Source of the DNA: a bacterium
Lineage (GTDB): Bacteria; Patescibacteriota; Minisyncoccia; Phycocordibacterales; CAIZLB01
Reading direction: 5' to 3'
Length of the DNA: 64,000 nt
NCBI GenBank assembly: GCA_037127815.1
Contig: JBAXXP010000001.1
Location: 16,936-80,935 of the forward strand
Made by a program: the position numbers and the translations under genes. The notes under the pieces are model-generated. The model worked only from the letters and a program-made list of their open reading frames with translations, searched no databases and was not told the origin of the DNA. Shown piece by piece: positions 17,483-54,657 of this stretch (the stretch's first letter is position 1; every line of letters begins with the position of its first letter).

Positions 17483-18376
17483 TTAGAGATTATCCATCCC
17501 TGGCCTTCTGATTAATGTAGAATAATTCTCAGCATACCCAGTTTTTTGAGAAATATCTGTAATGTAAAATTTCTTTCTAGCCTGATCTATAGTAAGTTTT
17601 GTATCGATTAACCCACTATCTAACGCCATCTTATCGGCATGACTTGTAAGCACTACTTGCCAGTCAAAAGACGTTAACATTCCTGGCCAAAGTTTGTTCA
17701 CATGTCCTGCAATACTTGATGTACAATTTGCAAAGATAGAGTTGTACCATGCAGGGTGAATAGATAACTCGTTCATTCTATTTAACATATCCACAAGCAA
17801 TAACTTACCATCTTTTTGATTAGCTTTAAGTGGGTATATATAAATGTCAGCCTTGAATATATTTGCACGAACATAAATAGCATCCCTCTCGTCCGTTGCA
17901 ATATACATCAATGGAAAAGTACGAATAGTTCCATTCACCGGGCTGTATTTTTGACCCTTTGTTAATCTTCCTTCAATTGTAATTACCAAAAATGAATTAT
18001 CTTCAAATTCAAATGATAAAAAGGTATGAGCAAAAGAACTATCTGGACTGAATGGAGCTGTTATGTACCAAACTTTTTTTAACTTATTCAAATCATAGGT
18101 TTTATCATAGTACACCTCAATAGTTGGGTTCCCATTAGCATCATATTGAAAATTTCTGACATTTTTGACCGTGACTAAATTATCTTTAAATTCAGCTGTA
18201 GACAGTACTTTTAAGGTATCCTTCCAGTCTCCATCAGTTGGAACTTTTTTTGTTGCTTGCCAAATGATAAAAACAGCGAGGATTATACAAATTAGAGACA
18301 GGGTGAATTTTAGTATTTTTCTGAATTTGAAGCCCTTCCTGATTTTTGCCATGTGAGATGGTTTCGTGTTTTTCAT
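17483..18376 (-). CDS. N-terminally membrane-anchored hypothetical protein (possibly a DUF4105-like lipoprotein-associated domain)
   Basis: 297 aa. Basic N-terminus plus transmembrane helix LSLICIILAVFIIW, then a soluble domain with no recognised catalytic motif. Confidence 0.35.
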   Translation of the reverse strand: MKNTKPSHMAKIRKGFKFRKILKFTLSLICIILAVFIIWQATKKVPTDGDWKDTLKVLSTAEFKDNLVTVKNVRNFQYDANGNPTIEVYYDKTYDLNKLKKVWYITAPFSPDSSFAHTFLSFEFEDNSFLVITIEGRLTKGQKYSPVNGTIRTFPLMYIATDERDAIYVRANIFKADIYIYPLKANQKDGKLLLVDMLNRMNELSIHPAWYNSIFANCTSSIAGHVNKLWPGMLTSFDWQVVLTSHADKMALDSGLIDTKLTIDQARKKFYITDISQKTGYAENYSTLIRRPGMDNL

Positions 18377-22246: not shown

Positions 22247-22271
22247 GCCCGAGCCTTAAAACCGCTCGGGC
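22247..22271. terminator. Hairpin GCCCGAGC-cttaaaacc-GCTCGGGC straddling the stop codon of the MazF-like gene
   Basis: 8-bp perfect stem. The TAA stop (22256-22258) lies in the loop. The upstream arm on the minus strand encodes the last residues, PERF. Confidence 0.4.
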
Positions 22272-22675
22272 TTAAGGTTTGATTTTATTTTAATCAGATC
22301 TTTTATAGACCTCTGTATCATTGCGAAATCTTTGTCTGACAAATATCCGATATGAGTGTCTAGCCTTTTTGTATCCAAAACCCTAAGTTGAGAGATTATA
22401 ACAGACTGCTCAGTATTTTTCAGTAAGACCTTCACATAATAGATATTGTCTTTATTTTTAGTACTCATTGGTATTCCCCAAAAAATGTTATTATTGAATT
22501 TTTTGAATACCAAAACAGGCCTTCGAAATATATACCCTTTTCCGTTTTCTTCATCCCCAACATTCTCCCCCAGTGCGCACCATCGAACCTCACCTTCTTT
22601 AATATAGATTCCCTTCCTTTCTTTTTTATCCAAATTAATTTTCACATATATCCAATCAATAAATATTTTTAGCAT
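22256..22675 (-). CDS. MazF/PemK-like endoribonuclease-fold protein (toxin-like), solitary, with an N-terminal extension
   Basis: 139 aa. The core VRWCALGENVGDEENGKGYIFRRPVLVFKKFNNNIFWGIPMSTKNKDNIYYVKV fits the MazF/Kid pattern W-x-D/L..G.E..G..RP.lV.......(V/I)P.T(S/T). No antitoxin-like ORF is adjacent. It is a paralog of 56296-56712. Confidence 0.55.
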   Translation of the reverse strand: MLKIFIDWIYVKINLDKKERKGIYIKEGEVRWCALGENVGDEENGKGYIFRRPVLVFKKFNNNIFWGIPMSTKNKDNIYYVKVLLKNTEQSVIISQLRVLDTKRLDTHIGYLSDKDFAMIQRSIKDLIKIKSNLKPERF

Positions 22676-24711: not shown

Positions 24712-24745
24712 TTTGGGGTCAGGCACCAGCGTGCCTGACCCCAAA
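24712..24745. repeat. Copy 1 of the GC-rich palindromic repeat family (TTTGGGGTCAGGCAC-cagc-GTGCCTGACCCCAAA)
   Basis: 15-bp perfect arms. It sits between the tandem minus-strand genes 23979-24692 and 24817-25563. Confidence 0.8.
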
Positions 24746-25578: not shown

Positions 25579-25616
25579 GATTTGGGGTCAGGCACCACGG
25601 TGCCTGACCCCAAATC
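25579..25616. repeat. Copy 2 of the palindromic repeat family (GATTTGGGGTCAGGCACCACGGTGCCTGACCCCAAATC)
   Basis: Near-perfect 18-bp arms. It lies between the MTase start (25563) and the NRAMP stop (25620). Confidence 0.8.
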
Positions 25617-28818: not shown

Positions 28819-28917
28819 ATCTGAGCCAAATTTGTGTACTGCTCCAAATTTTTAACTTCTATATTACGCTCCTAACACAGCCCTCATGTTCCAGAATTTT
28901 AGCAGAAATAAAAAACC

Positions 28918-28955
28918 TCTGGGTCACATATAATGTGCCCCAGAGGGTGTTTGAG
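28918..28955 (-). terminator. Hairpin (CCTCTGGG-tcacatataatgtgc-CCCAGAGG) followed by a T-run on the minus strand, downstream of 28984-29283
   Basis: The stem has one G.U pair. AAATAAAAAA on the plus strand gives TTTTTTATTT after the stem on the minus strand. Confidence 0.4.
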
Positions 28956-28983: not shown

Positions 28984-29283
28984 TCACCAGCCAAACGGGT
29001 TAGCGTATGGATTGTAGTATGGTTCCACGTAGTGTCCACGGTAGTAGCCACGGCGGCCATAGCCACCGTACGGAACAGTCGGACGGTTCATGGAATTGTT
29101 GAGGACAGCACCCCCTACCGCAGCAGCAGCAACACCCAATGCGGCCATTCCGACAGCATTGCCCATCTTGGCATTAGCTTCAGTTTGGCGAGCGCGCTGT
29201 TCGGGAGTACCACTTGGCATGGCGCAGTTTGTGAAAACAAGCGACACCATCGTAACGACAACAGTCAACAGTTTAGTTTTCAT
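28984..29283 (-). CDS. Small exported protein with a glycine-zipper segment and a Tyr/Gly/Arg/Pro-rich C-terminal tail
   Basis: Signal peptide MKTKLLTVVVTMVSLVFTNC, GMAALGVAAAAVGGAV glycine zipper, then PYGGYGRRGYYRGHYVEPYYNPYANPFGW. Confidence 0.5.
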   Translation of the reverse strand: MKTKLLTVVVTMVSLVFTNCAMPSGTPEQRARQTEANAKMGNAVGMAALGVAAAAVGGAVLNNSMNRPTVPYGGYGRRGYYRGHYVEPYYNPYANPFGW

Positions 29284-29346
29284 TTGTTCTGATTCTGGTT
29301 TTGGTTTTCTGACATCAGGAAAGGAGTATTCCTCCGGTCCTCACTA

Positions 29347-29374
29347 ATGCTATTCCTATCATATTTTTTGTCAA
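29347..29374 (-). promoter_or_regulatory. Sigma70-like promoter (minus strand: TTGACA-16nt-TAGCAT) for the 28984-29283 gene. A near-identical copy precedes the next paralog
   Basis: Minus-strand sequence CATTGACAAAAAATATGATAGGAATAGCATTAG. The same TTGACA-N16-TAGCATTA architecture and GAATAGCATTA block recur at 29872-29899. Confidence 0.5.
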
Positions 29375-29377
29375 TGA

Positions 29378-29791
29378 TCATCTATTGTTATGACCGTGTC
29401 CACCTTGGTGTTGATTGCCCCCAAAGTTTTGGTGCTGACCATATCCACCTCCTCTTCCTGGCGTGTTGTATACACCACGGTTGTAACTACCGTTGTAACC
29501 ACTATATCCATGATTACCGCCAACACTGTGACCGTAACCACTTGTATATCCACGATCTCCATAACTTGATCCGTAGTTATGGTTATCGTAACGATTATAG
29601 TATCCACCTCCGCGATAATAATTACGATATGGTTCGTACCCATAATACTGGGGACTTTCCACAATCACCTCCTCGACATACCCAGGTGTGTATGCTTGAC
29701 TGCTATAATCAATCATCGGCACACAACTCGTCAAAAGAAATGCTGGTGGAGCAAGGACAAGTAATGCTGTAAGAAACAATTTTGCATTCAT
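29378..29791 (-). CDS. Lipoprotein with a Gly/Tyr/Arg/Asn-rich low-complexity C-terminal region
   Basis: Lipobox LLTSC after the signal peptide MNAKLFLTALLVLAPPAFLLTSC. The tail is YYGYEPYRNYYRGGGYYNRYDNHNYGSSYGDRGYTSGYGHSVGGNHGYSGYNGSYNRG.... Confidence 0.5.
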   Translation of the reverse strand: MNAKLFLTALLVLAPPAFLLTSCVPMIDYSSQAYTPGYVEEVIVESPQYYGYEPYRNYYRGGGYYNRYDNHNYGSSYGDRGYTSGYGHSVGGNHGYSGYNGSYNRGVYNTPGRGGGYGQHQNFGGNQHQGGHGHNNR

Positions 29792-29871
29792 ATTCTTTGT
29801 GATTCTAGGGTTCTGTATTTTAGTTCAGGGTTCTGATGCAAGGAATCGATAACATCTTCACATCTGTCTTA

Positions 29872-29899
29872 ATGCTATTCTTCTCGTGATTTTTGTCAA
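29872..29899 (-). promoter_or_regulatory. Sigma70-like promoter (minus strand TTGACA-16nt-TAGCAT) for lipoprotein gene 29378-29791
   Basis: Minus-strand CATTGACAAAAATCACGAGAAGAATAGCATTAAG. Duplicate of the element at 29347-29374. Confidence 0.5.
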
Positions 29900-29961
29900 T
29901 GCAGAAAAATAATCACAAAAAAAAGAGCCCTATTGCTAGGACTCTTTTTATTGTTTCTTTG

Positions 29962-30033
29962 CGCGGCTGATGGGTGCTGACCCCACGGCCTCTCCCGTGA
30001 CAGGGGAGTGCTCTACCGTTGAGCTACAGCCGC
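29962..30033 (-). tRNA. tRNA-Asp (anticodon GUC). CCA not encoded. Unusual T-loop (GTCAGCA)
   Basis: GCGGCTGTAGCTCAACGGTAGAGCACTCCCCTGTCACGGGAGAGGCCGTGGGGTCAGCACCCATCAGCCGCG. The anticodon loop CTGTCAC matches E. coli tRNA-Asp, and the discriminator is G. Confidence 0.7.
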
Positions 30034-30632
30034 ATTTTCATGAATCCTTCGAAAATAAGCTTTTTTCTGTCCAGATAAAGCTTACTCGTCGTATTATACA
30101 TGATTTTATAAATTTTCAAAGAGTCTCGGGTACTATACTGTAATCTACTATAATTTCCACTTCTAAGGTTAAATAAACTTCCACCGTCCAAACCTAAAGA
30201 ATTAAGCATATTAAATAGATTATTTAAGAACATTTTACTAGCAGAAGTAAAGGCTACAAACATCACGGATGTTGGTTTTTTTCTTGTTTTATTAGTATGC
30301 CCTACCCAGATATTTCCATCCCCATCAAAATACCCTCTAATAAAATCTCCTTCATATTTTTTTGGAATGGTAGGAATATCCATTCTTAATGACTTATTTG
30401 GGGTAAGTCCAAGGAGTACAAGGTCATTAAACATTTCTTTGCTTCCAATTTGGACCCTATATACAGACCCCGTTTCTGATTTTATTTCAGATATTTTATG
30501 TGGTAATTTCATTACTTCAGCAATAGAAATAAGAAGTTCCCTGTCAGCCGTATAGAAAGAGATAAAATGAGTATTTCTTTTAGTTTTAATTATGTTACCA
30601 TCTGCAAATAAAAAACCTAAAATATAAGCCAT
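30024..30632 (-). CDS. Free-standing double-motif LAGLIDADG homing endonuclease
   Basis: 202 aa. Motif 1 LGFLFADGNI and motif 2 IRGYFDGDGNI are spaced about 100 aa apart, typical of monomeric two-domain LAGLIDADG enzymes. The 3' end overlaps the first ~10 nt of tRNA-Asp. Confidence 0.8.
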   Translation of the reverse strand: MAYILGFLFADGNIIKTKRNTHFISFYTADRELLISIAEVMKLPHKISEIKSETGSVYRVQIGSKEMFNDLVLLGLTPNKSLRMDIPTIPKKYEGDFIRGYFDGDGNIWVGHTNKTRKKPTSVMFVAFTSASKMFLNNLFNMLNSLGLDGGSLFNLRSGNYSRLQYSTRDSLKIYKIMYNTTSKLYLDRKKLIFEGFMKMRL

Positions 30633-34893: not shown

Positions 34894-34926
34894 TTGGGGT
34901 CAGGCACCATGGTGCCTGACCCCAAA
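34894..34926. repeat. Copy 3 of the palindromic repeat family (TTGGGGTCAGGCACCATGGTGCCTGACCCCAAA), intercistronic between gatC and gatA
   Basis: Perfect palindrome with a CATG centre. It occupies essentially the whole 44-nt gatC-gatA spacer. Confidence 0.8.
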
Positions 34927-35629: not shown

Positions 35630-35896
35630 TTAAGAATTAAGATGCTTCATTAAATCATTGGTATTATCAAATGGGCCCGAGGTTTTACCTTCTTTATATT
35701 CTTTCCTTGCTTCAACAATTAAAGACTCTAAACGTGGTGTTATGGTTGTTGATGTAGAAAATTCAAGCTGACCAGTTCTTGCAAATTGCTTTAGTGTTGC
35801 GTTCACTATTGAACTCAAAGACAGCCCTAGATCAAAGGCTCTTTGCTGGGCTTGTACCTTTACATCATTATCTATCTTTAGATTGACCTGTGTTTT
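35630..35896 (-). CDS. Type II antitoxin, RelB/DinJ family (ribbon-helix-helix)
   Basis: MKTQVNLKIDNDVKVQAQQRAFDLGLSLSSIVNATLKQFA resembles the DinJ N-terminus (RIDEDLKNQA..VLAGMGLTISDLVRITL). It lies immediately upstream of the toxin. The start is taken at the internal Met of the track ORF. Confidence 0.6.
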   Translation of the reverse strand, partial: KTQVNLKIDNDVKVQAQQRAFDLGLSLSSIVNATLKQFARTGQLEFSTSTTITPRLESLIVEARKEYKEGKTSGPFDNTNDLMKHLNS

Positions 35897-35943
35897 CATA
35901 TACCATAAGTATATACTTATGGTAGCGTGAGTCAAGTCAACTA

Positions 35944-38091: not shown

Positions 38092-38164
38092 TTAACACAA
38101 TTTAAGCACGGGGTCAGTCACGACGGCACTCAAACACCCAATAGTCATACATAGTCCTAAATCA

Positions 38165-38797
38165 TTAGTATTGTACATCCAGACCTCTTTCTACCGTTCT
38201 TGGATTTGCAGTATTACAACCTATTTTATCGGCTGTTACACCAGAATTATATCCTCTAGAAATAATTCTGGTGTAGGGTACGTTTTCTGTATTACCCAAA
38301 TCATCTGTTGCACTATTATAACCTTTAGCAATCACGACTTTTGCACAAGACGGATATCCATCGGTATTATTTGAATAATCAATAATTAAAGTTGAGGTTG
38401 CTGCATCAAAAGACACCATTTTTGATGCATATATTTTACCAGCTCCGCAACGAATAGTTGCATTTTCGGTGGGTATAGGTATAGGTGTAGGTGTAGCTGC
38501 GACAACAGTAGAAGATGCAGAAAATGGACCATCATCCAAAACATTTGTTCCATCAGCATTTTTTACATCCCAAAACTGTACACATTCAGAGCCAGAGTCA
38601 GCTGCATAAAAAGCAATCTGTGAATCTTTTCCTGAGCCTGCAAGAAGTAATTGCTTCAAAATAATATTCCCAATAGAAAAACCAACAGCAAGCAGAAGGC
38701 TTGAGACAACCATAGCCACAAAGAGTGTAAAACCAGAAGATCTGCTTTCTCTTGTGCTGTTCTTTTTGTTTTTCATCAGTTTATTTAAATTAATCAT
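38165..38797 (-). CDS. Type IV pilus minor pilin (prepilin-type N-terminal domain)
   Basis: ...SRSSG|FTLFVAMVVSSLLLAVGFSI prepilin cleavage and methylation motif. First of four consecutive pseudopilin genes. Confidence 0.55.
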   Translation of the reverse strand: MINLNKLMKNKKNSTRESRSSGFTLFVAMVVSSLLLAVGFSIGNIILKQLLLAGSGKDSQIAFYAADSGSECVQFWDVKNADGTNVLDDGPFSASSTVVAATPTPIPIPTENATIRCGAGKIYASKMVSFDAATSTLIIDYSNNTDGYPSCAKVVIAKGYNSATDDLGNTENVPYTRIISRGYNSGVTADKIGCNTANPRTVERGLDVQY

Positions 38798-38818
38798 ATT
38801 GTAATTATATTACTTAAA

Positions 38819-39478
38819 TTATAAACCATTTTTAGAAGCCCAGTTTGTAAAATACTCTTTTAAAGTAAGCTTTGATTGACTACTTCCAGTTTTCCAATAC
38901 ATATTCACAACCATAACAATTTCTTGCGGGACTGCCGGTTGAGTACCTGTAGGCATAGGTACTCTTTCAAAATATATCTCTCTTTTAAATATAGAATCTG
39001 TTACTACACTCCCTGTTGTTTTACCAAAAATACCATCCCCAATCTTTAAAAAATTATCATTGTATGCATCAAATTGATATCCACCAACACCTATAGTCAA
39101 GGATACTGTATTTGTCTTAGTAGTTGCAGCATTAGGAGCCGTCAGTATCATCTTGGTTCCGAATACACCGTCAGCTGTATTATCTCCAAGCCATATTCTT
39201 CTATCAGCATATTTCGCATTATCAACGTAAAACCCCGTAATTCCAATGCTCTGAACATCTCTCAAATTCCTTACATATTCAATTGCCTCCTGCGCCAGAT
39301 AATAAGCGGTCATTTGGTCTCTTGTGTAATACGATGAATGCAAAGCCTGCGCAATAATTCCGAGAGGCCCAATAACAGCAATTGTCAAAATAGAAATTGC
39401 GACCAAAGTTTCTACCATAGTTAAGCCTGCGTTACTTCTCACCTTACCAATATTTAATTTTATTTTTTTCAGGAACAT
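38819..39478 (-). CDS. Type IV pilus minor pilin (PilW/FimT-like)
   Basis: ...RSNAG|LTMVETLVAISILTIAVIGPL prepilin N-terminus, with Glu at +5. Confidence 0.6.
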   Translation of the reverse strand: MFLKKIKLNIGKVRSNAGLTMVETLVAISILTIAVIGPLGIIAQALHSSYYTRDQMTAYYLAQEAIEYVRNLRDVQSIGITGFYVDNAKYADRRIWLGDNTADGVFGTKMILTAPNAATTKTNTVSLTIGVGGYQFDAYNDNFLKIGDGIFGKTTGSVVTDSIFKREIYFERVPMPTGTQPAVPQEIVMVVNMYWKTGSSQSKLTLKEYFTNWASKNGL

Positions 39479-39483
39479 ATTTA

Positions 39484-40125
39484 TTATTTTGGTAGATTTA
39501 GATTTCTTTGAGAAATATATGTCTGCACTGTAAAATCAGAAGTCTGGGTTGGGTTCACATTTGCCGTTCCATTCATCGTAAGAAACACACTCGGTTGACC
39601 AGTATAATTTGCAGAGATGGGATTACTCACAACAAATTTTAAATCCTTAATATCAACTTCTGGTGATGTTAATGGATATTGGGAAACGACTTCGGACCCT
39701 GTGCGGGTTTCTTTCCATATTCTACCCTTACCGTCTGTCACTTCACGATAATATCTAACACCTCTTTTTTCACCTGTAATTGTGGATACTAGGGAAATAG
39801 AGAAGAACGACGTATTGGGAGTACAACCATTATCACCAGATAGATTAGAAGTCGTGGATGCTGAAATAACATTCACAGTACAGGTGTAAGCATATCCTGT
39901 TTTAATGTCTCTGACCATACTTTCGACTGCAAAGTTTAAGTTATTAGCTACAGCATTTATTGCTTGAGCTTTTTTGTTACCATCAACGATAGATAAGATT
40001 GCTCCAAGACTCAGAGTCATAACCATAGCAAATAAACTAACAGAAACCATAACCTCAATAAGGGTAAAACCTCTTTTTTGATTGGTATTCTTTTCAGTTT
40101 TATTTTTATTATTATTTCTAATCAT
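39484..40125 (-). CDS. Type IV pilus minor pilin (PilV-like)
   Basis: ...NQKRG|FTLIEVMVSVSLFAMVMTLSLGAIL prepilin N-terminus. Confidence 0.6.
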   Translation of the reverse strand: MIRNNNKNKTEKNTNQKRGFTLIEVMVSVSLFAMVMTLSLGAILSIVDGNKKAQAINAVANNLNFAVESMVRDIKTGYAYTCTVNVISASTTSNLSGDNGCTPNTSFFSISLVSTITGEKRGVRYYREVTDGKGRIWKETRTGSEVVSQYPLTSPEVDIKDLKFVVSNPISANYTGQPSVFLTMNGTANVNPTQTSDFTVQTYISQRNLNLPK

Positions 40126-40167
40126 TTTTTTATTATTTACTATTTTTCAATAGAACCTCACATTATT

Positions 40168-40869
40168 TTACGGAATTGGAGTAGTGGGTGTTGTACAATT
40201 AAGTCCTGGATTAGGAACCCCCGGATTCTCAACTCTTATCTGCCCAGTAACTTCAACTACAATAGCTCTACAGTTTGTCCCCTCCGCATTGTTTACAATA
40301 ATTCTTGCAGGACCCACAGCCTGAGTGACACCAAGACTAGCATCAACAACATAAAAAGTAGCCTCAGGATTTGGTCTTTTAAACATTATAGCTAGTTTTT
40401 CACTAGATTGCAGAGACATACAGGCAGGGTCAGTACCATGGGCGACGCAAGCTCCTGTAATTTTATTTCCTCTCTGGTTCTGAATTTGATACATTGATTG
40501 AACTTCTGATGGTTGACCATCAGACTCAAGTATGCGGGGCACTTTGTTATCATCAGCGTCACCAAATACAACAACTTGATTTGAAATTCCCATATCAAAA
40601 TACGCACCATATCCCATATTAAAATTAGGATTGGCAGAGGCTGTTGCTCTCACTCCAATACCATAGGTCTGTGCCTCTCTTACAGAAAGTGCAGTCTCAT
40701 ACGCAAGGTTCGTTATCAAAATACTACTATTCAATCCAGTCTGATTAAATAATGCAGCACCCATAATTACAGCAAAAATACCAAGAACAACAATAAGCTC
40801 AATCATAGTAAACCCCCCATTCTTTAGCTTTACAATCTGCTTATTTTTTTTAGAAAAAATTACCTTCAT
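40168..40869 (-). CDS. Type IV pilus minor pilin (FimT/GspH-like)
   Basis: ...LKNGG|FTMIELIVVLGIFAVIMGAALF prepilin N-terminus. Confidence 0.6.
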   Translation of the reverse strand: MKVIFSKKNKQIVKLKNGGFTMIELIVVLGIFAVIMGAALFNQTGLNSSILITNLAYETALSVREAQTYGIGVRATASANPNFNMGYGAYFDMGISNQVVVFGDADDNKVPRILESDGQPSEVQSMYQIQNQRGNKITGACVAHGTDPACMSLQSSEKLAIMFKRPNPEATFYVVDASLGVTQAVGPARIIVNNAEGTNCRAIVVEVTGQIRVENPGVPNPGLNCTTPTTPIP

Positions 40870-40910
40870 TAGCTATATTGTAACACAACAGAAAACAAGA
40901 AAATAGTAAA

Positions 40911-41915
40911 TTATGAATTAAATATCGCAAGAAAATCCATTACAGAAATATTTAAGAAGAATACAATCAACAGTCCAAGTATTAGGAATGGTGCAAACGG
41001 TATCTCACTTTGAAATTTAACAGAATACAGTTGCTTGAAATCACTTTGTATTCCCATTCTATTCTTTCTGTTTGCCGTCTTTTTTGATATAAATTTCATC
41101 ACAGCAACGCCTCCCATTGCAATAAGTGATATTATTGCTCCAATCCAGAAGGCAAAAACAACAGCTGAGAAGCCATATTTAACTCCAAGAAGCCATCCGA
41201 TTCCTAACCCGAGCTTTGCATCACCAAGTCCCATCCACTTCCCTCCTGAGATAAGCCAAATGAAATAGAATGGAAATGCAACGAAGATTCCAGAAAGTAG
41301 CATCATATACCCATCAAAGTTCAGTGGTATGCCAAAAAGAATACTAGAAGTTTCATAATTGAAGCTGAGAAAAATCTGAAGAAATGCTATAGCAGCAAAT
41401 GCGTATGAGAATTCATCGGGAATAATTTTATGCTTGAAATCATAAACTGTCATCAGAACCAGCAAACACATAATTATTAAAGATACCCCTACAGATACAC
41501 CAAAAATTAATGGCGACACCTCAAGTATTGCTGCGTTTTTTAAATATACAAACAAAAACAGAACGGCAGTGAAAATCTCTACCAATACATATTGTGGAGA
41601 TATCTTACTTTTACACGTTCTACATTTTCCTTTTAGGAATATCCAACTGAAAATTGGGAACAGGTCTATTACAGACAATGTTCTTCTGCACGATGGACAT
41701 TTAGAGCGACCCCCCAACCCCCTCCCTGTATTAAATCTATATAAAACTACATTCAAGAAACTTCCAATAATGGCGCCAAAAATAAAAAAGGCAAATGATA
41801 AGAAAATGGTCATGTCTATATAATACATTATTATTGGTGTGCTGGCGATTGGGTAGTTTCCAGCTGTATTTTGTGATTTTAGAACAACAAAAAAACCGAG
41901 CCGGAATATCTCCAA
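40911..41915 (-). CDS. pilD: Prepilin peptidase / N-methyltransferase PilD (A24 family)
   Basis: GAIIGSFLNVVLYR TM1 motif. A CPSC...CRTC tetracysteine Zn site in the first cytoplasmic loop. Catalytic Asp-containing helices. The likely true start is MTIFLSF (41813), since the track ORF adds 34 N-terminal residues. Confidence 0.8.
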   Translation of the reverse strand: MEIFRLGFFVVLKSQNTAGNYPIASTPIIMYYIDMTIFLSFAFFIFGAIIGSFLNVVLYRFNTGRGLGGRSKCPSCRRTLSVIDLFPIFSWIFLKGKCRTCKSKISPQYVLVEIFTAVLFLFVYLKNAAILEVSPLIFGVSVGVSLIIMCLLVLMTVYDFKHKIIPDEFSYAFAAIAFLQIFLSFNYETSSILFGIPLNFDGYMMLLSGIFVAFPFYFIWLISGGKWMGLGDAKLGLGIGWLLGVKYGFSAVVFAFWIGAIISLIAMGGVAVMKFISKKTANRKNRMGIQSDFKQLYSVKFQSEIPFAPFLILGLLIVFFLNISVMDFLAIFNS

Positions 41916-41948
41916 ACTCGGTTTTTAATTCTCCCAAACTATGTCAAA

Positions 41949-42374
41949 TTAACTTCCACAAACACCCCCCGTAACTGTATTTCCTGTTGTAGAAGCTGAT
42001 TTTCCAGTACTATCTACACACCAATATGCGCCAGACGTCTTTGCTGCTACAGCCCAAGCTGTAGTTGATGCGGTACAATAAACGGAATTTACTGGTGAAG
42101 TTTTTGTCTTAACATCCGTTATAAGAGTTTTTAAGCCTGTATCTGCGATAAAAATACCACCGGTACAGTCAGCAGAACTACTGTAACTTCCAGCTGTCGA
42201 ATAATACAACTCCGCCTGAGCTCTCATGTTTGAAAGCTCAGATTGGATAGCTGCATCCTGTCCTTTTGTTCTCGCTGTTGTAAGTGAAGCTAACACAACA
42301 GATGAAAGAATACCGATGATAGCAATAACTACCAAGAGCTCGATCAATGTGAAACCTTTATTTGAATTTTTCAT
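41949..42374 (-). CDS. pilA: Major type IV pilin (PilA-like)
   Basis: 141 aa. Short leader MKNSNKG|FTLIELLVVIAIIGILSSVVLASL. A C-terminal Cys pair (C...C) forms a D-region disulfide. The size is typical of a major pilin. Confidence 0.7.
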   Translation of the reverse strand: MKNSNKGFTLIELLVVIAIIGILSSVVLASLTTARTKGQDAAIQSELSNMRAQAELYYSTAGSYSSSADCTGGIFIADTGLKTLITDVKTKTSPVNSVYCTASTTAWAVAAKTSGAYWCVDSTGKSASTTGNTVTGGVCGS

Positions 42375-42458
42375 AAACTATTTTTAAATTTAATTGTTAT
42401 AACAATGAGACTGGCCGAAAACCGAAACTGATTTTTAACTTGATTTTGATTTCAAAAT

Positions 42459-42489
42459 TACGTGAGTGTCTTAAATAGACATTCACGTA
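42459..42489 (-). terminator. Hairpin (TACGTGAGTGTC-ttaaata-GACATTCACGTA) between pilC and pilA, followed by a T-rich tract on the minus strand
   Basis: 12-bp stem with one G.U. On the minus strand the stem is followed by ATTTTGAAATC. It is a candidate terminator or attenuator that separates the pilA transcript. Confidence 0.35.
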
Positions 42490-42580
42490 TGTTTAATTAT
42501 ATACTATATATACAAATAGGCTATTTTGATGTGTGGATAGGTCATTTGCGTCCATTACTTTTTTCCTTCTTTCCCAATTA

Positions 42581-43792
42581 CTACATAGATGAAGACACGT
42601 TGTAAATAGGAATCAAAACTGACGCGAGCAAGAATCCAACACCAAGACCAAGTGCAACAATCATAATAGGTTCAATCAAGTCCACAAGTGTATCAACTGC
42701 TTGCATAACCTCTCTTTGATAGAATTTAGCAAGAGTCTTTAGAATTCCACCCACATCTCCCGTCTCCTCTCCAACCTTAACCATCTGTACCATAATTCCT
42801 GGAATTTCTTTTTGATAGGGCATCAATGAATCAGACAATGACTTACCACCTCTAACCGCTTCCAATGCGTCATTCAACAAATCTTCATAAACTTTATTGT
42901 CCACAACCTTACTTGTAAGTTCAAGTGCTTTAACCATAGGAACACCAGAAATTAGCTGTGTGTTCATGTTATCTGCAATTCTTGAAAGATACAGTTTCTT
43001 ATACAAACTACTTACATAAGGAATCTCTAATTTAAATTTTGCAAACGAGTCCTTGCCAGCTGGTGTTCTTGCGTAATAAATAAGTAAAATAATTCCTGCA
43101 ATGAACACCGCCAAAAAGAAGAATCCATATCTCACCATAAAATTACTAAGTCCAATAACAATTTTTGTATAAATAGGAACCTCTTGTCCAGAATCAAGAA
43201 TAATTGAAGAGATTTTTGGAATAACCACAGTAAGCATCAGAATCATAACGGCAAAGAATGTGAAGATAACAAAGGCTGGATAAATTAAGGCATTCTTAAC
43301 CTTTGATGAAACTTCATAACTTCTATCAAGATAGTCAGCTAGGTATTCAAATGTCTCATCCAACTTACCAGACTCCTCCCCCGCCTTGATCATGTTTGTA
43401 TAAAAAGAGGAGAAAACTCTTGGATGCTTTGACAAAGCAGATGACATGGATGTACCACCCTGAATATCTTCTGCAACTTCTGAAAGAATTATTCTAAGAT
43501 TCTTATTCTCCATTTCCCCCGCTAGCAATCTAAAGATTCTAAGAGCAGAAACCTGCGCAGTAAAGAGTGTAGCCAACTGACGAGACAAAATAACAATATC
43601 CTTGTTTGAGATACCTGTACCAAAAATAGCCAAATCTCTACTTAAAAGACCTTTATCTTCAGCTGGCTTAATTGAGGAAATTGTCAGATTTCTTCTTTGA
43701 AGAGAGTTTATGGCAATATCAACATTGATTGCATCAATTGTTCCTTCACTCTCGGCTCCACCTTCTCCTATTGCTTTGTATTTGAATAACAT
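42581..43792 (-). CDS. pilC: Type IV pilus platform protein PilC (GspF family)
   Basis: 403 aa. Two GspF repeats with three transmembrane helices each. Confidence 0.85.
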   Translation of the reverse strand: MLFKYKAIGEGGAESEGTIDAINVDIAINSLQRRNLTISSIKPAEDKGLLSRDLAIFGTGISNKDIVILSRQLATLFTAQVSALRIFRLLAGEMENKNLRIILSEVAEDIQGGTSMSSALSKHPRVFSSFYTNMIKAGEESGKLDETFEYLADYLDRSYEVSSKVKNALIYPAFVIFTFFAVMILMLTVVIPKISSIILDSGQEVPIYTKIVIGLSNFMVRYGFFFLAVFIAGIILLIYYARTPAGKDSFAKFKLEIPYVSSLYKKLYLSRIADNMNTQLISGVPMVKALELTSKVVDNKVYEDLLNDALEAVRGGKSLSDSLMPYQKEIPGIMVQMVKVGEETGDVGGILKTLAKFYQREVMQAVDTLVDLIEPIMIVALGLGVGFLLASVLIPIYNVSSSM

Positions 43793-43812
43793 CTTTTTTA
43801 GATTTGTTTAAA

Positions 43813-44874
43813 TTATACCATTCTTTCTAGATTTTTTGGATTCAAAGAATGCTTATATGCAGATTCAATTGAAATTTCCCCACGTCTTACTAGCTCCGCA
43901 AGGGACCTATTCATATCAATCATACCATCACCCATTCCCGTTTCAATTACGGTATTTATTTCATATGATCTTTTCTCTCTAATTAAGTTTGCTGTTGCGT
44001 TGTTTGCAATCATAAGCTCAAAGGCAGGAACCATTCCACCTGAAATTTTTGGAATTAATCTTTGTGAAAATATTCCGGTTAAGGATGATGCCAGCTGTGT
44101 TCTAATTTGATCCTGTTGTTCAGGTGGAAATGAATCTATAATTCTATCAATGGTTTGCGATGCATTATTAGTATGAAGTGTTGAAAGAACTAAGTGACCA
44201 GTCTCGGCTGCTGTTACCGCAGCTGATATTGTCTCCGTATTCCTCATCTCTCCCAATAGAATAACGTTAACGTCTTGACGCAAAACTGAGGTTAGTGCAG
44301 CTTCAAAACTATTTGTATCAACAAAAATCTCTCTTTGGTCAATAATAGATTTCTTTTGTTCATACAAATATTCAATGGGGTTTTCAATTGTGATAATATG
44401 TTCTGCTCTTTCTTGATTAATAAGTTCAACCATAGACGCCAGGGTTGTTGACTTGCCTTGTCCAACTGGACCAACTACCAAAAAGAAACCTTGCTTCATT
44501 CTGGCAAAGCTTTCCAGAATTTCTGGTAACCCTAACTCCTTAAGTGTCTTTATTTTATTTTGAATAAGTCTAAGTGCAATAGTATGAGCACTTCTTTGTA
44601 TATACGCATTACCTCTAAATCTTGACACTTCATTAAACTGATACGAGAAGTCCAACTCTTTATTGTCTAAAAATCTTTTACGAGAAGCTTCATCTATCAT
44701 TAAATTTAACAAGGAATCAATATCATCATGTGTAAGAAGTGGTTTTTTAACTAATGGAATTAAAACCCCATTAACTCTAACTGTTGGATGTCTACCCTCA
44801 GACAAGTGTAAATCAGACGCCCCCTCTAGGGTAACTGTTGATAAAAGGTCTTTTAATTCTTGTTCGTAATTCAT
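43813..44874 (-). CDS. pilT: Twitching-motility retraction ATPase PilT
   Basis: 353 aa. Walker A GPVGQGKST, Asp box, Walker B and His box. Its size is PilT-like and it lacks the long PilB N-domain. Confidence 0.85.
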   Translation of the reverse strand: MNYEQELKDLLSTVTLEGASDLHLSEGRHPTVRVNGVLIPLVKKPLLTHDDIDSLLNLMIDEASRKRFLDNKELDFSYQFNEVSRFRGNAYIQRSAHTIALRLIQNKIKTLKELGLPEILESFARMKQGFFLVVGPVGQGKSTTLASMVELINQERAEHIITIENPIEYLYEQKKSIIDQREIFVDTNSFEAALTSVLRQDVNVILLGEMRNTETISAAVTAAETGHLVLSTLHTNNASQTIDRIIDSFPPEQQDQIRTQLASSLTGIFSQRLIPKISGGMVPAFELMIANNATANLIREKRSYEINTVIETGMGDGMIDMNRSLAELVRRGEISIESAYKHSLNPKNLERMV

Positions 44875-44898
44875 ATTTTTTATTTTAATAGTTTAAAA

Positions 44899-45315
44899 TT
44901 ATATAGAAACACCTACCCTTCTATCTTTTGTTCTCTCTAAAAGAGCAAAAACTTCTGTGACAATTTCTGATGGAATAGATGTTGCCTTAACAATATAACC
45001 ATCAACACCAAGACTTTTGGCCTTCTCAATATCAGATGGCTGTCCTTGATTACTAAGCATCATAATAGCAGCTCTCTTTGCTAGGCCGTCCACCCTGATT
45101 GCGTTCAACGCCTCTATGCCATCCATTACAGGCATTACAACATCCAGAAGAATGACATCAGGTTCGTATCCATCCTTTAGTTTGGTAACAGCAACCAAAC
45201 CATTGCCAGCTAAAGTAACATCAAATCTATTATTGGTAAATTTTATTGAATACATATTCAATAAAAACTTATCATCATCCACAATCATTACTTTAAATGG
45301 TATATCTCCGTTCAT
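44899..45315 (-). CDS. Single-domain response regulator (CheY-like receiver) embedded in the pilus locus
   Basis: 138 aa. Phospho-acceptor Asp in ILLDVVMPVMDG, and DD at the N-terminus (MIVDDDKF). Confidence 0.75.
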   Translation of the reverse strand: MNGDIPFKVMIVDDDKFLLNMYSIKFTNNRFDVTLAGNGLVAVTKLKDGYEPDVILLDVVMPVMDGIEALNAIRVDGLAKRAAIMMLSNQGQPSDIEKAKSLGVDGYIVKATSIPSEIVTEVFALLERTKDRRVGVSI

Positions 45316-45406
45316 GTTTTTATTATATCACAAAACAATTACAAAAAAATGTAGATAGTAACATTCCAACATAAAAAAAACACTTCTCTCTACGCAATAG
45401 ATCTTA

Positions 45407-47134
45407 CTAAACTTTACTGATTTCTTCCATCGGAATAACTTTATTTAAAGCCTTGATTGTAGCATCCTCTTTCATTAAAATCATACCTTGAGTTCTTGCA
45501 TATTTTGTAATTGCAATTTCAGTTGGCTCTTTTAGAATAATTTCCTGCATTGTTTTATCCACCTCAAACATTTCAGTTACAGCGATTCTTCCTTTTGTTC
45601 CACGTGGACAATCTGGAGTGGGACTAATTTTATAGACGTCCTTCATTTCAGGAATAACCCCTCTAAATTCTGTTGGGATTTCTTCAAGGAATTTGTCAAA
45701 AATTGTCTTAATACTTCCTTCTACTGGAATTGTCGTAACAGCAGATTCATATGACTTACCAACAAGACGCTGTGCCATTCCCAAAATCAACGTAGGAGCA
45801 ATAAGATAAGGGTCAATTCCCATGTCCACAAGTCTAGGGATAATACCAACAGCTGAGTTGGTGTGAATTGTTGATAGCACCAAGTGACCAGTAAGAGCGG
45901 CTTGAATAGCCAACTCCGCCGTCTCCTTATCTCTAATCTCTCCAACCATTATAATATCTGGGTCCTGGCGAAGAGTAGTACGCAATCCAGTTGCAAAAGT
46001 ATATCCAATTTCTGGTCTAACCTGAGACTGACTTAATCCCTCAATATTATATTCAACCGGATCCTCAAGTGACAGCACATTGTTTTCTTCCAAATCAAGC
46101 TCCTTAACCATAGAATAAAGGGTTGTTGTCTTTCCAGATCCTGTAGGACCAGAAATAAGGATTAACCCATAAGGCTTATCTAATGCCTCTTTAATTAATT
46201 TAAGATTTCTCTCTGGAAACCCTAACTCATCAAGTTTTTGAACACTTTTTTGTTGATCCAAGATACGCATTTCAACTTTTTCTCCATAATATGTTGGAAA
46301 TGTAGATACACGAAAGTCAATCTTTCTTCCGTCAATTCTTGCGGAAAAACGGTTATCTTGTGGCTTACGTTTTTCATCGAGCTTAATATTGGAAAGAATT
46401 TTAATACGCGCAACAAGAGCGTCGTGAACTTTTGCAGGCAAAACAATACTTGTATATAAAACACCGTCTACTCGGAAACGAACACGAACTCTATCCTTCA
46501 TTGGTTCAATATGAACGTCAGATACTCCTCCCTCAATTGCATAACGTAAGATTGTTGCAACAATTTTTGTAACTGGCGCGTCTTCAATTATATTAGGTGC
46601 TCCCCCAACAGCAGGAGCCTTACCAAGATCACCTCTATCCTTCATCATTTCAACCTCTTCTGCTGAAAATTCAGTCTCTAAATCACCGAGAGCTTTATTA
46701 ACTTCTCCGGCAATTCCATTATAAGCGGCTAATGCCTGGGTGAAATCATCCTCAGAGATAAGGAAGATTTTAAAAGGCATATTTGTCTTATTTGAAATAA
46801 AATTAAGAGCGTCTCTCGCCTCAATATTCTCAGGATCCACAATTCCAACCTCAAGAACTCCATCGGAAATACCAAGTGGAATAATTTTATAGTGATTTGC
46901 AGATTCTTCTGGAATATATTTTAAAACATCAAAAGCAATGTCCTTTCCGTCAAGTTCTCTTGTTGGTATTTTAAGATACTCACCTTTTGCTTTTACTATT
47001 GCTGTATTACTAATCTGTTTGGCACGCAAAATATCCTCTACAGATTGACCTGTGGTTGTTGCTTCATCTGATATGTATGGGATATCCTCCGCTGATATCA
47101 CATTTTGCTTTGCTAATACGTCTAAAAAACTCAT
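45407..47134 (-). CDS. pilB: Type IV pilus assembly ATPase PilB (GspE family)
   Basis: 575 aa. N-terminal GSPII_E_N domain. Walker A GPTGSGKTT, Asp box, Walker B, His box. Confidence 0.9.
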   Translation of the reverse strand: MSFLDVLAKQNVISAEDIPYISDEATTTGQSVEDILRAKQISNTAIVKAKGEYLKIPTRELDGKDIAFDVLKYIPEESANHYKIIPLGISDGVLEVGIVDPENIEARDALNFISNKTNMPFKIFLISEDDFTQALAAYNGIAGEVNKALGDLETEFSAEEVEMMKDRGDLGKAPAVGGAPNIIEDAPVTKIVATILRYAIEGGVSDVHIEPMKDRVRVRFRVDGVLYTSIVLPAKVHDALVARIKILSNIKLDEKRKPQDNRFSARIDGRKIDFRVSTFPTYYGEKVEMRILDQQKSVQKLDELGFPERNLKLIKEALDKPYGLILISGPTGSGKTTTLYSMVKELDLEENNVLSLEDPVEYNIEGLSQSQVRPEIGYTFATGLRTTLRQDPDIIMVGEIRDKETAELAIQAALTGHLVLSTIHTNSAVGIIPRLVDMGIDPYLIAPTLILGMAQRLVGKSYESAVTTIPVEGSIKTIFDKFLEEIPTEFRGVIPEMKDVYKISPTPDCPRGTKGRIAVTEMFEVDKTMQEIILKEPTEIAITKYARTQGMILMKEDATIKALNKVIPMEEISKV

Positions 47135-47144
47135 ATTTATTTTA

Positions 47145-47687: not shown

Positions 47688-47691
47688 GTTT

Positions 47692-48249: not shown

Positions 48250-48250
48250 A

Positions 48251-52900: not shown

Positions 52901-52992
52901 TGGCGGAGACGGAGGGATTCGAACCCTCGGTGCCGTTTAAAGGGCACACCTCTTTAGCAAAGAGGCACGTTAGACCACTCTGACACGTCTCC
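52901..52992 (-). tRNA. tRNA-Ser (anticodon GCU), type II with long variable arm. CCA encoded
   Basis: GGAGACGTGTCAGAGTGGTCTAACGTGCCTCTTTGCTAAAGAGGTGTGCCCTTTAAACGGCACCGAGGGTTCGAATCCCTCCGTCTCCGCCA. Anticodon loop TTGCTAA. Confidence 0.8.
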
Positions 52993-53629: not shown

Positions 53630-53665
53630 ATTTGGGGTCAGGCACCATGGTGCCTGACCCCAAAT
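53630..53665. repeat. Copy 4 of the palindromic repeat family (ATTTGGGGTCAGGCACCATGGTGCCTGACCCCAAAT)
   Basis: Perfect 36-nt palindrome between the grx stop (53626) and the ung stop (53667). Confidence 0.8.
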
Positions 53666-54514: not shown

Positions 54515-54657
54515 CAAAATAATGGGCATAGCCCATATATTTTGCGAGAGTGCAGAATAGGTTGCGAAGCGACCGTAATTCTGCCTCCGCAAGTCATATT
54601 ACCCTTAAAATTTGACACCCTCTGTATCTTTGTTAAACTATAGGTACAAATAGACTT

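What the first reader, a model, noticed from the sequence alone, without database searches (positions are those of the whole stretch)
28984..29899. Tandem exported-protein genes with Gly/Tyr/Arg-rich tails driven by duplicated TTGACA-N16-TAGCAT promoters
Two adjacent minus-strand genes encode a signal-peptide or lipobox N-terminus followed by low-complexity tails rich in Y, G, R, N and H (for example YYGYEPYRNYYRGGGYYNRYDNHNYGSSYG). Each has a ~28-nt upstream element that is almost identical (CATTGACAAAAA-N-GAATAGCATTA): a clean -35 TTGACA, a 16-nt spacer and a TAGCAT -10. The first gene also has a glycine-zipper helix. The composition recalls secreted adhesive or amyloid-forming and cell-wall-binding peptides. 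The duplicated promoter implies recent tandem duplication or co-regulation.
Basis: seen in the sequence. Interest (0 to 1): 0.5.

Follow-up and report, generated by a model that had tools for sequence, protein, structure and literature searches.

The report
Two small lipoprotein genes sharing a promoter
Two neighbouring genes of an uncultured, very small-genome (Patescibacteria/CPR) bacterium encode small membrane-anchored proteins with sticky, unstructured glycine/tyrosine-rich stretches. They share a promoter-plus-leader module that is also kept in related species, so this is a real but fairly ordinary pair of uncharacterised envelope genes.

Summary
Gene A (29378-29791, minus, 137 aa) and gene B (28984-29283, minus, 99 aa) both begin with a lipoprotein signal peptide. 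Each is preceded by TTGACA-N16-TAGCAT inside a 32-nt direct repeat, and these are the only two copies in 64 kb.

The "recent tandem duplication" reading fails. The proteins cannot be aligned, and the 9 nt between the conserved blocks has diverged. A and B belong to two different orphan families.
- A is a lipid-anchored, apparently disordered protein (G 23%, Y 18%, N 10%, H 6%).
- Two related Patescibacteria carry compositionally matching lipoproteins directly upstream of the same HD-hydrolase gene. Both have the same promoter block (GGAATAG[C/T]ATTA) and the same CAGAATCA motif next to the ATG.
- B has six distant homologues. All have a lipobox, a GTPEQQARQTxANA segment, a Gly/Ala-rich hydrophobic helix and a basic Tyr/Arg tail. 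By the positive-inside rule that tail is probably cytoplasmic, not exported.

The locus lies in a variable stretch between tRNA-Asp and the HD gene. The genome has no Shine-Dalgarno sites and many leaderless-type promoters, so this promoter with its 55-75 nt leader stands out.

No known protein or RNA family matches. No phase variation was seen. Function is inferred only (envelope coat or adhesion). Modest interest.

The parts
29920..29949 (-). Intrinsic terminator hairpin plus T-run after tRNA-Asp (29961-30033). It closes the upstream transcription unit just before promoter P_A.
   Evidence: 13-bp stem, T-run; inverted repeat I2
29870..29901 (-). Promoter block P_A. -35 TTGACA at 29899-29894, 16-nt spacer, -10 TAGCAT at 29877-29872, in the context GAATAGCATTA.
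29792..29869 (-). Leader of gene A, about 74 nt if transcription starts near 29865. It is A/C-rich, has no Shine-Dalgarno site, and has AGAATCA at 29800-29806. No significant fold and no Rfam match.
29378..29791 (-). Gene A, 137 aa. Signal peptide with lipobox LLTSC (Cys23, nt 29723-29725). Mature part is a Gly/Tyr/Asn/His/Arg-rich low-complexity region (densest at nt 29381-29656) that ends in a His cluster, HGHNNR.
29345..29376 (-). Promoter block P_B. -35 TTGACA at 29374-29369, 16-nt spacer, -10 TAGCAT at 29352-29347. It starts 3 nt after the stop codon of A, with no terminator between A and B.
29284..29344 (-). Leader of gene B, about 57 nt. It has a GGAGG-containing hairpin near the 5' end (not statistically significant), an A/C-rich tract, and CAGAATCA at 29290-29297.
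28984..29283 (-). Gene B, 99 aa. Signal peptide with lipobox VFTNC (Cys20, nt 29224-29226). Conserved segment GTPEQRARQTEANAK. Gly/Ala-rich hydrophobic helix at residues 43-61 (nt 29101-29157). Basic Tyr/Gly/Arg/Pro tail at residues 62-99 (nt 28987-29100).
28904..28952 (-). Terminator-like hairpin (20-nt arms, 85% complementary) followed by a T-run. It ends the A-B unit before the HD-hydrolase gene.
   Evidence: inverted repeat I1

Best explanation
This is an accessory envelope locus of a Patescibacteria (CPR) bacterium. It holds two unrelated small lipoprotein genes that use copies of one lineage-specific promoter-leader module.

Shown:
- Each gene has a lipobox signal peptide.
- Each is preceded by TTGACA-N16-TAGCAT within invariant flanks (CATTGACAAAAA ... 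GAATAGCATTA).
- Each has a 55-75 nt A/C-rich leader without a Shine-Dalgarno site, and each leader ends in (C)AGAATCA.
- The same module precedes the syntenic Gly/Tyr/His-rich lipoprotein gene of two related species.
- The coding parts and the promoter spacer have diverged.

Inferred mechanism:
- The housekeeping sigma factor, or a close variant, reads a perfect -35 plus an imperfect but fixed -10. This makes a long-leader mRNA translated without a Shine-Dalgarno site, as elsewhere in this genome.
- A is transcribed from P_A. B is transcribed from P_B plus read-through from P_A, because no terminator separates them.
- A is lipidated at Cys23 and carries a roughly 90-residue disordered Gly/Tyr/Asn/His/Arg chain on the outer face of the membrane. 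The most likely role is a cohesive or adhesive surface coat held by Tyr/Arg/Gly contacts, possibly metal-assisted through the conserved C-terminal His cluster.
- B is lipidated at Cys20, has a short outside helix, then a Gly/Ala zipper helix that most likely spans the membrane. Its basic Tyr/Arg tail would then be on the cytoplasmic side.
- The shared promoter arose by an old copy of the regulatory module, not of the gene. It is kept by selection so that the two envelope proteins are expressed together.
For: - ORFs, lipoboxes and sequence.
- Repeat and its rarity.
- Terminators that bracket the unit.
- A vs B not alignable.
- Syntenic homologues with the same promoter: L015 (HD gene 87% identical; TTGACA-N16-TAGCAT, GGAATAGCATTAAGGAGG) and L027 (HD 82%; TTGACA-N16-TAGTAT).
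- L015 and L027 proteins are homologous to each other (E=2e-6). Their composition matches A (G 30%, Y 17%, N 10%, H 9% in L015). A three-way alignment keeps the lipobox Cys, a GYG..YYG.GGYY core and a C-terminal His cluster.
- Intergenic DNA is otherwise not alignable between these genomes.
- Leaders are more alike than shuffles: A-B z=2.9, B-L027 z=4.6.
- AGAATCA lies close to the start codon only in these genes.
- B family: six homologues with invariant Cys, GT.xQ, AN and G50.
- AlphaFold of B gives one long helix at 27-65 and a disordered tail.
- Hydrophobic 19-mer scores KD 2.06. Net charge is about 0 before it and +1 to +10 after it, in the six of seven family members for which the script located the lipobox Cys (P0128 was mis-anchored).
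- The genome has no Shine-Dalgarno sites. About a third of genes have TATAAT 4-12 nt before the ATG, mostly with poor -35 boxes, so P_A and P_B are a distinct class.
- A and B are the only lipobox ORFs in the window.
Against: - No transcription data, so promoter use and start sites are inferred from consensus and position only.
- A shows no statistically significant sequence similarity to the L015/L027 proteins after composition correction. Homology rests on synteny, promoter, architecture and composition.
- Lgt and LspA were not found in the window (searches cover about 48 of the 64 long ORFs, none beyond 48922). B has Asn at lipobox position -1.
- B's topology is a rule-of-thumb prediction.
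- The surface-coat or adhesion function has no direct support.
- Only 64 kb of the genome could be scanned, so it is unknown whether the module serves more genes.
Confidence: 0.55

Rival explanations
1. Recent tandem duplication of one gene together with its promoter. A and B would be young paralogues.
For: Two adjacent same-strand genes, both lipoproteins with Tyr/Gly-rich parts and an 84%-identical 32-nt upstream block. There is a short shared motif, Y.EPY.N.Y, in both tails.
Against: - BLASTP gives E=25 between A and B.
- The signal peptides are unrelated.
- B has a conserved helix domain that A lacks, and B has its own homologues elsewhere.
- The promoter spacer matches at 4 of 9 positions while the flanking 12- and 11-nt blocks are perfect. 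The same blocks persist in species whose flanking genes are only 76-82% identical at the DNA level.
Confidence: 0.04
2. The conserved block is mainly an operator or an alternative-sigma recognition site. It would define a small regulon switched by a specific factor (for example envelope stress, growth phase or host contact), rather than a constitutive housekeeping promoter.
For: - Invariance extends beyond the hexamers (GAATAG[C/T]ATTA; TTGACAAA) in four instances.
- The non-consensus G-C (or G-T) inside the -10 is kept.
- A second conserved GAAT-containing motif, (C)AGAATCA, lies near the ATG in all four.
- This promoter class differs from the genome's usual extended -10, leaderless type.
Against: - There is no palindrome or direct-repeat operator structure beyond AAT/ATT.
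- No regulator gene is adjacent.
- The hexamers and 16-nt spacing fit sigma-70 well.
- Only two sites lie in 64 kb, and the exact pattern is at chance level across 185,579 genomes.
Confidence: 0.25
3. The two 32-nt direct repeats are recombination scars or attachment sites that flank a small inserted cassette (gene A) next to tRNA-Asp. They would not be promoters.
For: The repeats bracket gene A exactly, with 525-nt spacing. The locus abuts a tRNA gene and a LAGLIDADG gene. Gene content between tRNA-Asp and the HD gene differs in every relative examined.
Against: - In L015 and L027 the block occurs once, upstream of the gene and not on both sides.
- It has perfect -35 and spacing features.
- Its distance to the ATG is similar in all cases (63-80 nt from the -10 to the start codon).
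- No integrase or recombinase is present in the interval.
Confidence: 0.06
4. The proteins act in metal handling. The His-rich Gly/Tyr chains would bind divalent cations at the membrane surface and serve the nearby Nramp transporter.
For: A conserved C-terminal His cluster: HGHNNR in A, SHHHQN in L015, SHHHNN in L027. His is 6-9% of the mature proteins. B-family member P0122 ends HGGHGHYRRGYRHGGYGHYY. An Nramp gene lies about 1.8 kb away in the conserved HD-DUF5666-Nramp block.
Against: - The lipoprotein genes are in the variable part of the locus and are absent from most relatives that keep HD and Nramp.
- No metal-regulator box was recognised in the promoter.
- No match to any metal-binding family.
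Confidence: 0.12
5. B, and possibly A, is a membrane-active small lipoprotein of the entericidin/OsmB kind (a stress or lysis modulator). The tandem arrangement would be a toxin and modulator pair.
For: Small size, lipobox, Gly/Ala zipper helix. Tandem small lipoprotein genes with separate promoters recall the ecnA/ecnB locus (own knowledge, not tested).
Against: No match to Entericidin, Gly-zipper_Omp/YMGG, Rick_17kDa_Anti or any other model at E<=10. A has no membrane-active helix. L015 and L027 carry the A type alone.
Confidence: 0.08

Closest known systems
Bacterial lipoproteins processed by Lgt/LspA (lipobox [LVI][ASTVI][GAS]C)
   Same: Both have a short basic N-terminus, a hydrophobic core and a Cys at the lipobox position. 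The Cys is invariant in the B family and in the three A-type proteins.
   Different: The mature parts match no described lipoprotein family. B has Asn at -1. The processing enzymes were not seen in the window.
Small glycine-zipper lipoproteins of Gram-negative bacteria (OsmB, entericidin A/B, Pcp/SlyB; Pfam Gly-zipper_Omp, Gly-zipper_YMGG, Rick_17kDa_Anti)
   Same: B is a lipoprotein under 100 aa with a Gly/Ala-rich helix carrying G-x3-G-x4-G-x6-GG spacing.
   Different: No profile match. B has a single long helix rather than a helical hairpin. It carries a basic Tyr/Arg tail. The host is a Patescibacteria cell, which is thought to lack an outer membrane (own knowledge).
Mycoplasma variable surface lipoprotein families (Vlp, Vsp, Vsa)
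   Same: A small-genome, host-dependent bacterium. Adjacent lipoprotein genes with a shared 5' regulatory region and fast-diverging low-complexity mature parts. A short A-run follows the -35 box.
   Different: The signal peptides are not conserved. There are no tandem coding repeats. The A-run is only 5-6 nt. Twelve independent metagenome copies are 100% identical, so no phase variation was seen.
Eukaryotic Gly/Tyr-rich low-complexity proteins (high-glycine-tyrosine keratin-associated proteins, FUS-type [G/S]Y[G/S] domains, C. elegans NLP/CNC YGGYG peptides)
   Same: Composition: G 23-30%, Y 17-18%, with N, S, R and H. Short GYG/YYG motifs. Predicted lack of structure.
   Different: Resemblance in composition only, recalled from memory. 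There is no homology, and here the chain is lipid-anchored to a bacterial membrane.
Sigma-70-type promoters
   Same: Perfect TTGACA, 16-nt spacer, and a -10 with A2 and T6.
   Different: The -10 is TAGCAT/TAGTAT with invariant flanks. The usual promoters of this genome are TATAAT close to the ATG with a weak -35.

Membership tests
Bacterial lipoprotein (Lgt/LspA substrate) | N-terminal basic region plus a 7-22 residue hydrophobic core | tested here: met
   A: MNAK + LFLTALLVLAPPAFLL. B: MKTK + LLTVVVTMVSLVF. A regex scan finds only these two in the window.
Bacterial lipoprotein (Lgt/LspA substrate) | Lipobox [LVI][ASTVI][GAS]C with a conserved Cys | tested here: met
   A has LTSC. L015 has SSSC and L027 has TSSC. 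B has FTNC, where Asn at -1 is atypical, but its homologues have PSC, VSC, ISC, SSC or ASC and the Cys is invariant.
Bacterial lipoprotein (Lgt/LspA substrate) | Lgt and LspA encoded by the genome | not testable with these tools
   Only 64 kb is available. About 48 of the 64 long ORFs were scanned against Pfam, and neither enzyme appeared. An Lnb_N (DUF4105) protein is present at 17483-18376.
Sigma-70-type promoter | -35 and -10 hexamers with 16-18 nt spacing | tested here: met
   TTGACA-16-TAGCAT twice, 10 of 12 matches. Same in L015. L027 has TAGTAT.
Sigma-70-type promoter | Transcription starts 6-8 nt downstream of the -10 | not testable with these tools
   No RNA data. Needs 5'-RACE, dRNA-seq or metatranscriptome mapping.
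Glycine-zipper lipoproteins (Pfam Gly-zipper_Omp/YMGG, Rick_17kDa_Anti, Entericidin; OsmB) | Significant match to a family profile | tested here: not met
   No such family at E<=10 for B or its six homologues, and none in NCBIfam.
Glycine-zipper lipoproteins (Pfam Gly-zipper_Omp/YMGG, Rick_17kDa_Anti, Entericidin; OsmB) | GxxxG-type small-residue repeats on a hydrophobic helix | tested here: met
   G41-x3-G45-x4-G50-x6-G57G58 within a predicted helix at 27-65. Mean Kyte-Doolittle score is 2.06 over residues 43-61.
Mycoplasma-type variable lipoprotein system (Vlp/Vsp) | Conserved 5' region that includes the signal peptide across family members | tested here: not met
   Promoter blocks and leader motifs are conserved, but the signal peptides of A and B are unrelated.
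Mycoplasma-type variable lipoprotein system (Vlp/Vsp) | Tandem in-frame repeats and length-variable homopolymer in the promoter (phase variation) | tested here: not met
   Tandem Repeats Finder reports only a weak 12-nt x 2.6 array. Twelve contigs from different samples are 100% identical over 908-1161 nt.
Functional amyloid systems (curli CsgA/B, Fap, chaplins, TasA) | Profile match or the associated assembly genes nearby | tested here: not met
   No Pfam or NCBIfam hit. The neighbours are tRNA, LAGLIDADG, HD hydrolase, a DUF5666-like protein and Nramp.
Known cis-regulatory RNA (riboswitch or leader) in the 5' leaders | Rfam covariance-model match or a significantly stable fold | tested here: not met
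   No Rfam match on the minus strand in 29284-29869 at E<=1. Fold z-scores are -1.0, +0.3 and -0.5.

The most novel reading that the evidence does not exclude
The TTGACA-N16-TAG[C/T]AT plus CAGAATCA module marks a lineage-specific, dedicated expression cassette for fast-evolving low-complexity lipoproteins in these ultra-small, probably host-attached bacteria. In this reading the Gly/Tyr/Arg/His chains form a lipid-anchored cohesive layer, a bacterial counterpart of eukaryotic Gly/Tyr-rich matrix or phase-separating domains. That layer would mediate attachment to a host cell. B would link it across the membrane through its zipper helix and cytoplasmic Tyr/Arg tail.
Probability: 0.1. Interest if true: 0.6.

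Novelty: new member of a known kind. Interest (0 to 1): 0.3.

Why it matters
Patescibacteria (CPR) cells are tiny, mostly uncultured and thought to live attached to other microbes, and almost nothing is known about their surface proteins or their promoters.

This locus offers three things:
- a concrete, conserved promoter-leader element that differs from the genome's usual leaderless promoters;
- two uncharacterised families of very small lipoproteins that are candidates for envelope or attachment functions;
- an example of regulatory DNA being better conserved than the low-complexity proteins it drives.

It does not open a long-standing question, and no unusual mechanism is indicated.

Tried and rejected
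- **Family searches.** Pfam, NCBIfam and PDB-sequence searches of A, B, the A-type trio and the B family found nothing meaningful.
- **Word-indexed homologue search.** A gave no hit, and its exact sequence is not even in that protein collection. B hit only itself.
- **Exhaustive HMMER search with B.** It gave six true small homologues plus two spurious repeat proteins, P0124 and P0127, which were rejected on inspection.
- **Motif scan of 185,579 genomes** for TTGACAAAAA-N9-GAATAGCATTA. Two hits: a Staskawiczbacteria contig, upstream of an unrelated small gene, and a Microcoleus contig. My estimate of the chance number is 0.3-3, so this is no evidence for a wider regulon.
- **Metagenome scan with the B-family alignment.** The first alignment was too diverse. 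The second found only two short contigs of one organism, with an ordinary promoter.
- **Leader RNA structure.** Not significant. No Rfam family.
- **Upstream ORFs in the leaders.** Present in A and B, not conserved in L015 or L027, so rejected as a shared feature.
- **(T/C)AGAAT near the ATG as a second, leaderless-type -10.** The distance fits in A and B (10 and 8 nt) but not in L015 or L027 (1 and 3 nt), so this reading was rejected.
- **Phase variation or strain polymorphism.** None in 12 contigs.
- **Fur, Zur or MntR-like boxes and alternative-sigma consensus sequences.** Compared by eye from memory, with no convincing match. Not a formal test.
- **Literature searches.** Nothing on such proteins in Patescibacteria.
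- **AlphaFold of the A-type alignment.** The single-sequence model of A shows only the signal-peptide helix, which is weak evidence for disorder.
Full report
**What is there**

On the minus strand, the order is as follows.
- tRNA-Asp (29961-30033) with its terminator hairpin (29949-29920)
- a promoter-like block (29901-29870)
- a leader of about 74 nt
- gene A (29791-29378, 137 aa)
- three nucleotides later, a second promoter-like block (29376-29345)
- a leader of about 57 nt
- gene B (29283-28984, 99 aa)
- a 20-bp-arm hairpin with a T-run (28952-28904)
- an HD-domain hydrolase gene (28818-28186), then a DUF5666-like secreted protein on the other strand, then an Nramp transporter

The two blocks are a 32-nt direct repeat, 84% identical. 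CATTGACAAAAA and GAATAGCATTA are identical in both copies, and the nine bases between them match at four positions. Both copies read TTGACA-N16-TAGCAT exactly. With one mismatch allowed the window has three matches against 0.53 expected. With TTGACAAA fixed and two mismatches allowed there are still only these two. GAATAGCATTA occurs exactly only here.

**The organism and its usual gene starts**

The exact locus is present, 100% identical, on contigs from several lake metagenomes and one NCBI MAG labelled only "bacterium". Homologues of the neighbouring HD gene are named Yonathbacteria, Niyogibacteria, Pacebacteria or "Patescibacteria group". The window also holds a type IV pilus cluster. This points to a Parcubacteria-like member of the candidate phyla radiation.

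Upstream of the 64 long ORFs there is essentially no Shine-Dalgarno sequence. About 22 ORFs have a TATAAT-like hexamer ending 4-12 nt before the start codon, mostly with a poor -35. That is a leaderless-type architecture. Other genes have A/C-rich leaders.

Against this background, P_A and P_B are a distinct class. They have a perfect -35, a fixed imperfect -10 and long leaders. Their lack of a ribosome-binding site is normal for this genome.

**The two genes are not duplicates**

BLASTP of A against B gives E=25, and the signal peptides differ.

A has a lipobox (LLTSC). The rest has no predicted secondary structure (single-sequence model, weak evidence). Its composition is G 23%, Y 18%, N 10%, S 8%, R 6% and H 6%.

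B has a lipobox (VFTNC), a polar segment GTPEQRARQTEANAK, a Gly/Ala-rich hydrophobic stretch and a Tyr/Gly/Arg/Pro tail. An exhaustive HMMER search found six true homologues of B (sequences).
- They are 86-102 aa long and have E-values from 5e-12 to 3e-4.
- All share the same layout.
- Cys20, G25, T26, Q29, A36, N37, G50 and Y85 are invariant.

AlphaFold with this alignment gives one long helix at residues 27-65 and a disordered tail, with mean pLDDT 61. The best 19-residue window of B has mean Kyte-Doolittle hydropathy 2.06. In the six members for which the lipobox Cys was located (P0128 was mis-anchored by the script), the net charge before the helix is about 0 and after it +1 to +10. By the positive-inside rule, B's "tail" is more likely cytoplasmic than exported. 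This is an inference, not a demonstration.

One B-family member from another organism (L021) has an ordinary TTGACA/TATAAT promoter and a GGAGG ribosome site. The special promoter is therefore not a property of the B family.

**The promoter-leader module is conserved in other species**

I used homologues of the HD gene to fetch syntenic loci. The interval between tRNA-Asp/LAGLIDADG and the HD gene differs in almost every relative. It holds GATase, LRR, APH, NUDIX, SpoU or unknown genes, so this is a variable spot.

Two relatives carry a lipoprotein directly upstream of the HD gene.
- **L015** (HD 87% identical): 128 aa, MKKWILASLAALIALISSSC..., G 30%, Y 17%, N 10%, H 9%.
- **L027** (HD 82% identical, GCA_037131935.1): 137 aa.

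These two are homologous to each other (E=2e-6). With A they share the lipobox, a GYG..YYG.GGYY core and a C-terminal His cluster: HGHNNR, SHHHQN and SHHHNN. After composition correction, however, A is not significantly similar to either.

Both have the same upstream block.
- L015: TTGACAAACCTAGCCAAAGGAATAGCATTAAGGAGG
- L027: TTGACAGTCCTAACCATAGGAATAGTATTAAGGAGG

Otherwise only coding and tRNA regions align between these genomes, at 64-90% identity and mostly 70-82%.

The leaders downstream of the block are also more alike than shuffled controls (A-B z=2.9; B-L015 3.3; B-L027 4.6; L015-L027 7.6). All four end in (C)AGAATCA, 0-12 nt before the ATG. That heptamer is at chance frequency in the window and is not found near any other start codon.

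Invariant blocks, a diverged spacer and diverged coding regions together indicate selection on a regulatory module. Its two copies in the window are old, not recent. B's leader resembles the L015/L027 leaders more than A's does. This suggests that a B-type coding region came to sit behind the HD-proximal copy of the module.

**What it probably does**

The form, the position directly after terminators and the conservation all support two promoters. There is no terminator between A and B, so B should receive transcripts from both.

No Rfam family and no significant fold were found in the leaders. No protein family, solved structure or defence or amyloid model matches either protein. There are no tandem coding repeats and no sequence variation among 12 metagenome copies. 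A mycoplasma-style phase-variable system is therefore not supported.

The best-supported reading has two parts.
- A lipid-anchored, disordered Gly/Tyr/Asn/His chain (A type) sits on the cell surface.
- A bitopic zipper-helix lipoprotein (B type) is expressed with it from a dedicated promoter class.

An envelope-coat or adhesion role is an inference from composition and from the lifestyle attributed to these bacteria. A metal-binding role suggested by the His clusters is a weaker alternative. It is weaker because the genes are missing from most relatives that keep the neighbouring Nramp gene.

**Limits**

Only 64 kb of the genome was available, so the size of the regulon is unknown. A scan of 185,579 representative genomes for the exact 21 specified bases found only two sites, about the chance number by my estimate. 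No RNA data were available. Lgt and LspA could not be checked.

**Verdict**

The finding is real. Its promoter interpretation is reasonable and is strengthened by cross-species conservation. Its duplication interpretation is wrong, and its functional analogy is untested. It adds two new small orphan families and one conserved cis-element to an ordinary category. Interest is modest.

Noticed in passing
window 24715-24742, 25584-25611, 34896-34923, 53634-53661, 61226-61272; single half-sites at 2791-2800 and 38110-38119: A repeated palindromic intergenic element, GGGGTCAGGC-N8(-N27)-GCCTGACCCC. There are 12 half-sites against 0.94 expected. They lie between genes, like REP-type elements or shared terminator hairpins.
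   Followed up: partly
whole window (upstream of 64 long ORFs): The genome shows virtually no Shine-Dalgarno sequences. About a third of genes have a TATAAT-like box ending 4-12 nt before the start codon (leaderless-type), usually with a weak -35. The others have A/C-rich leaders.
   Followed up: partly
window 30024-30632 (-) and tRNA-Asp 29961-30033 (-): A free-standing LAGLIDADG endonuclease-like gene whose stop codon lies inside the 5' end of tRNA-Asp. It sits between tRNA-Met and tRNA-Asp, and the same arrangement recurs in relatives (L015, L019, and the contig of P0006).
   Followed up: no
window 54428-54515 (+): ARAGORN calls a tRNA-Ser with the unusual anticodon ACT, in addition to tRNA-Ser(GCT) at 52901-52992. 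This may be a miscalled anticodon loop or an odd tRNA.
   Followed up: no
window 29800-29806 and 29290-29297 (-); L015 3487-3494; L027 2937-2944: (C)AGAATCA lies 0-12 nt upstream of the ATG in all four genes that carry the promoter block, and near no other start codon in the window. Its role is unexplained: ribosome contact, regulator site or inherited leader remnant.
   Followed up: partly
L015 3429-3437, L027 2890-2898; window 29327-29333 (-): A perfect Shine-Dalgarno-like AAGGAGGA (GGAGGAA in B) sits right at the predicted 5' end of the leaders, 45-60 nt from the ATG, in genomes that otherwise do not use such sites. It could be a 5' stabiliser or stand-by site, or part of the promoter's start region.
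   Followed up: no
window 29280-29315 (-) and 29813-29848 (-): Each window leader contains an 11-codon upstream ORF. In B it is MSENQNQNQNK, and its TGA overlaps B's ATG as ATGA. In A it is MLSIPCIRTLN. Neither is conserved in L015 or L027.
   Followed up: partly
window 17483-18376 (-): A protein with an Lnb_N (formerly DUF4105) domain. The domain is named after the Bacteroidota lipoprotein N-acyltransferase, so it may be relevant to lipoprotein maturation in this organism.
   Followed up: no
window 38165-48922 (-): A type IV pilus gene cluster: several pilins with N-methylation motifs, PilX_N, prepilin peptidase, T2SSF, two T2SSE ATPases, a PilO-like protein and a stand-alone response regulator.
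   Followed up: no
window 22256-22675 (-) and 35630-35935 (-): A MazF/PemK-type toxin gene and a RelB/DUF6364 antitoxin-like gene lie among housekeeping genes.
   Followed up: no
L013 4190-4295 (-), Candidatus Staskawiczbacteria contig CAILLM010000002.1: An exact copy of TTGACAAAAA-N9-GAATAGCATTA directly after a terminator and upstream of an unrelated Cys-rich small ORF that has a normal GGAGG site. It is either chance or a sign that this promoter form occurs more widely in Parcubacteria.
   Followed up: partly
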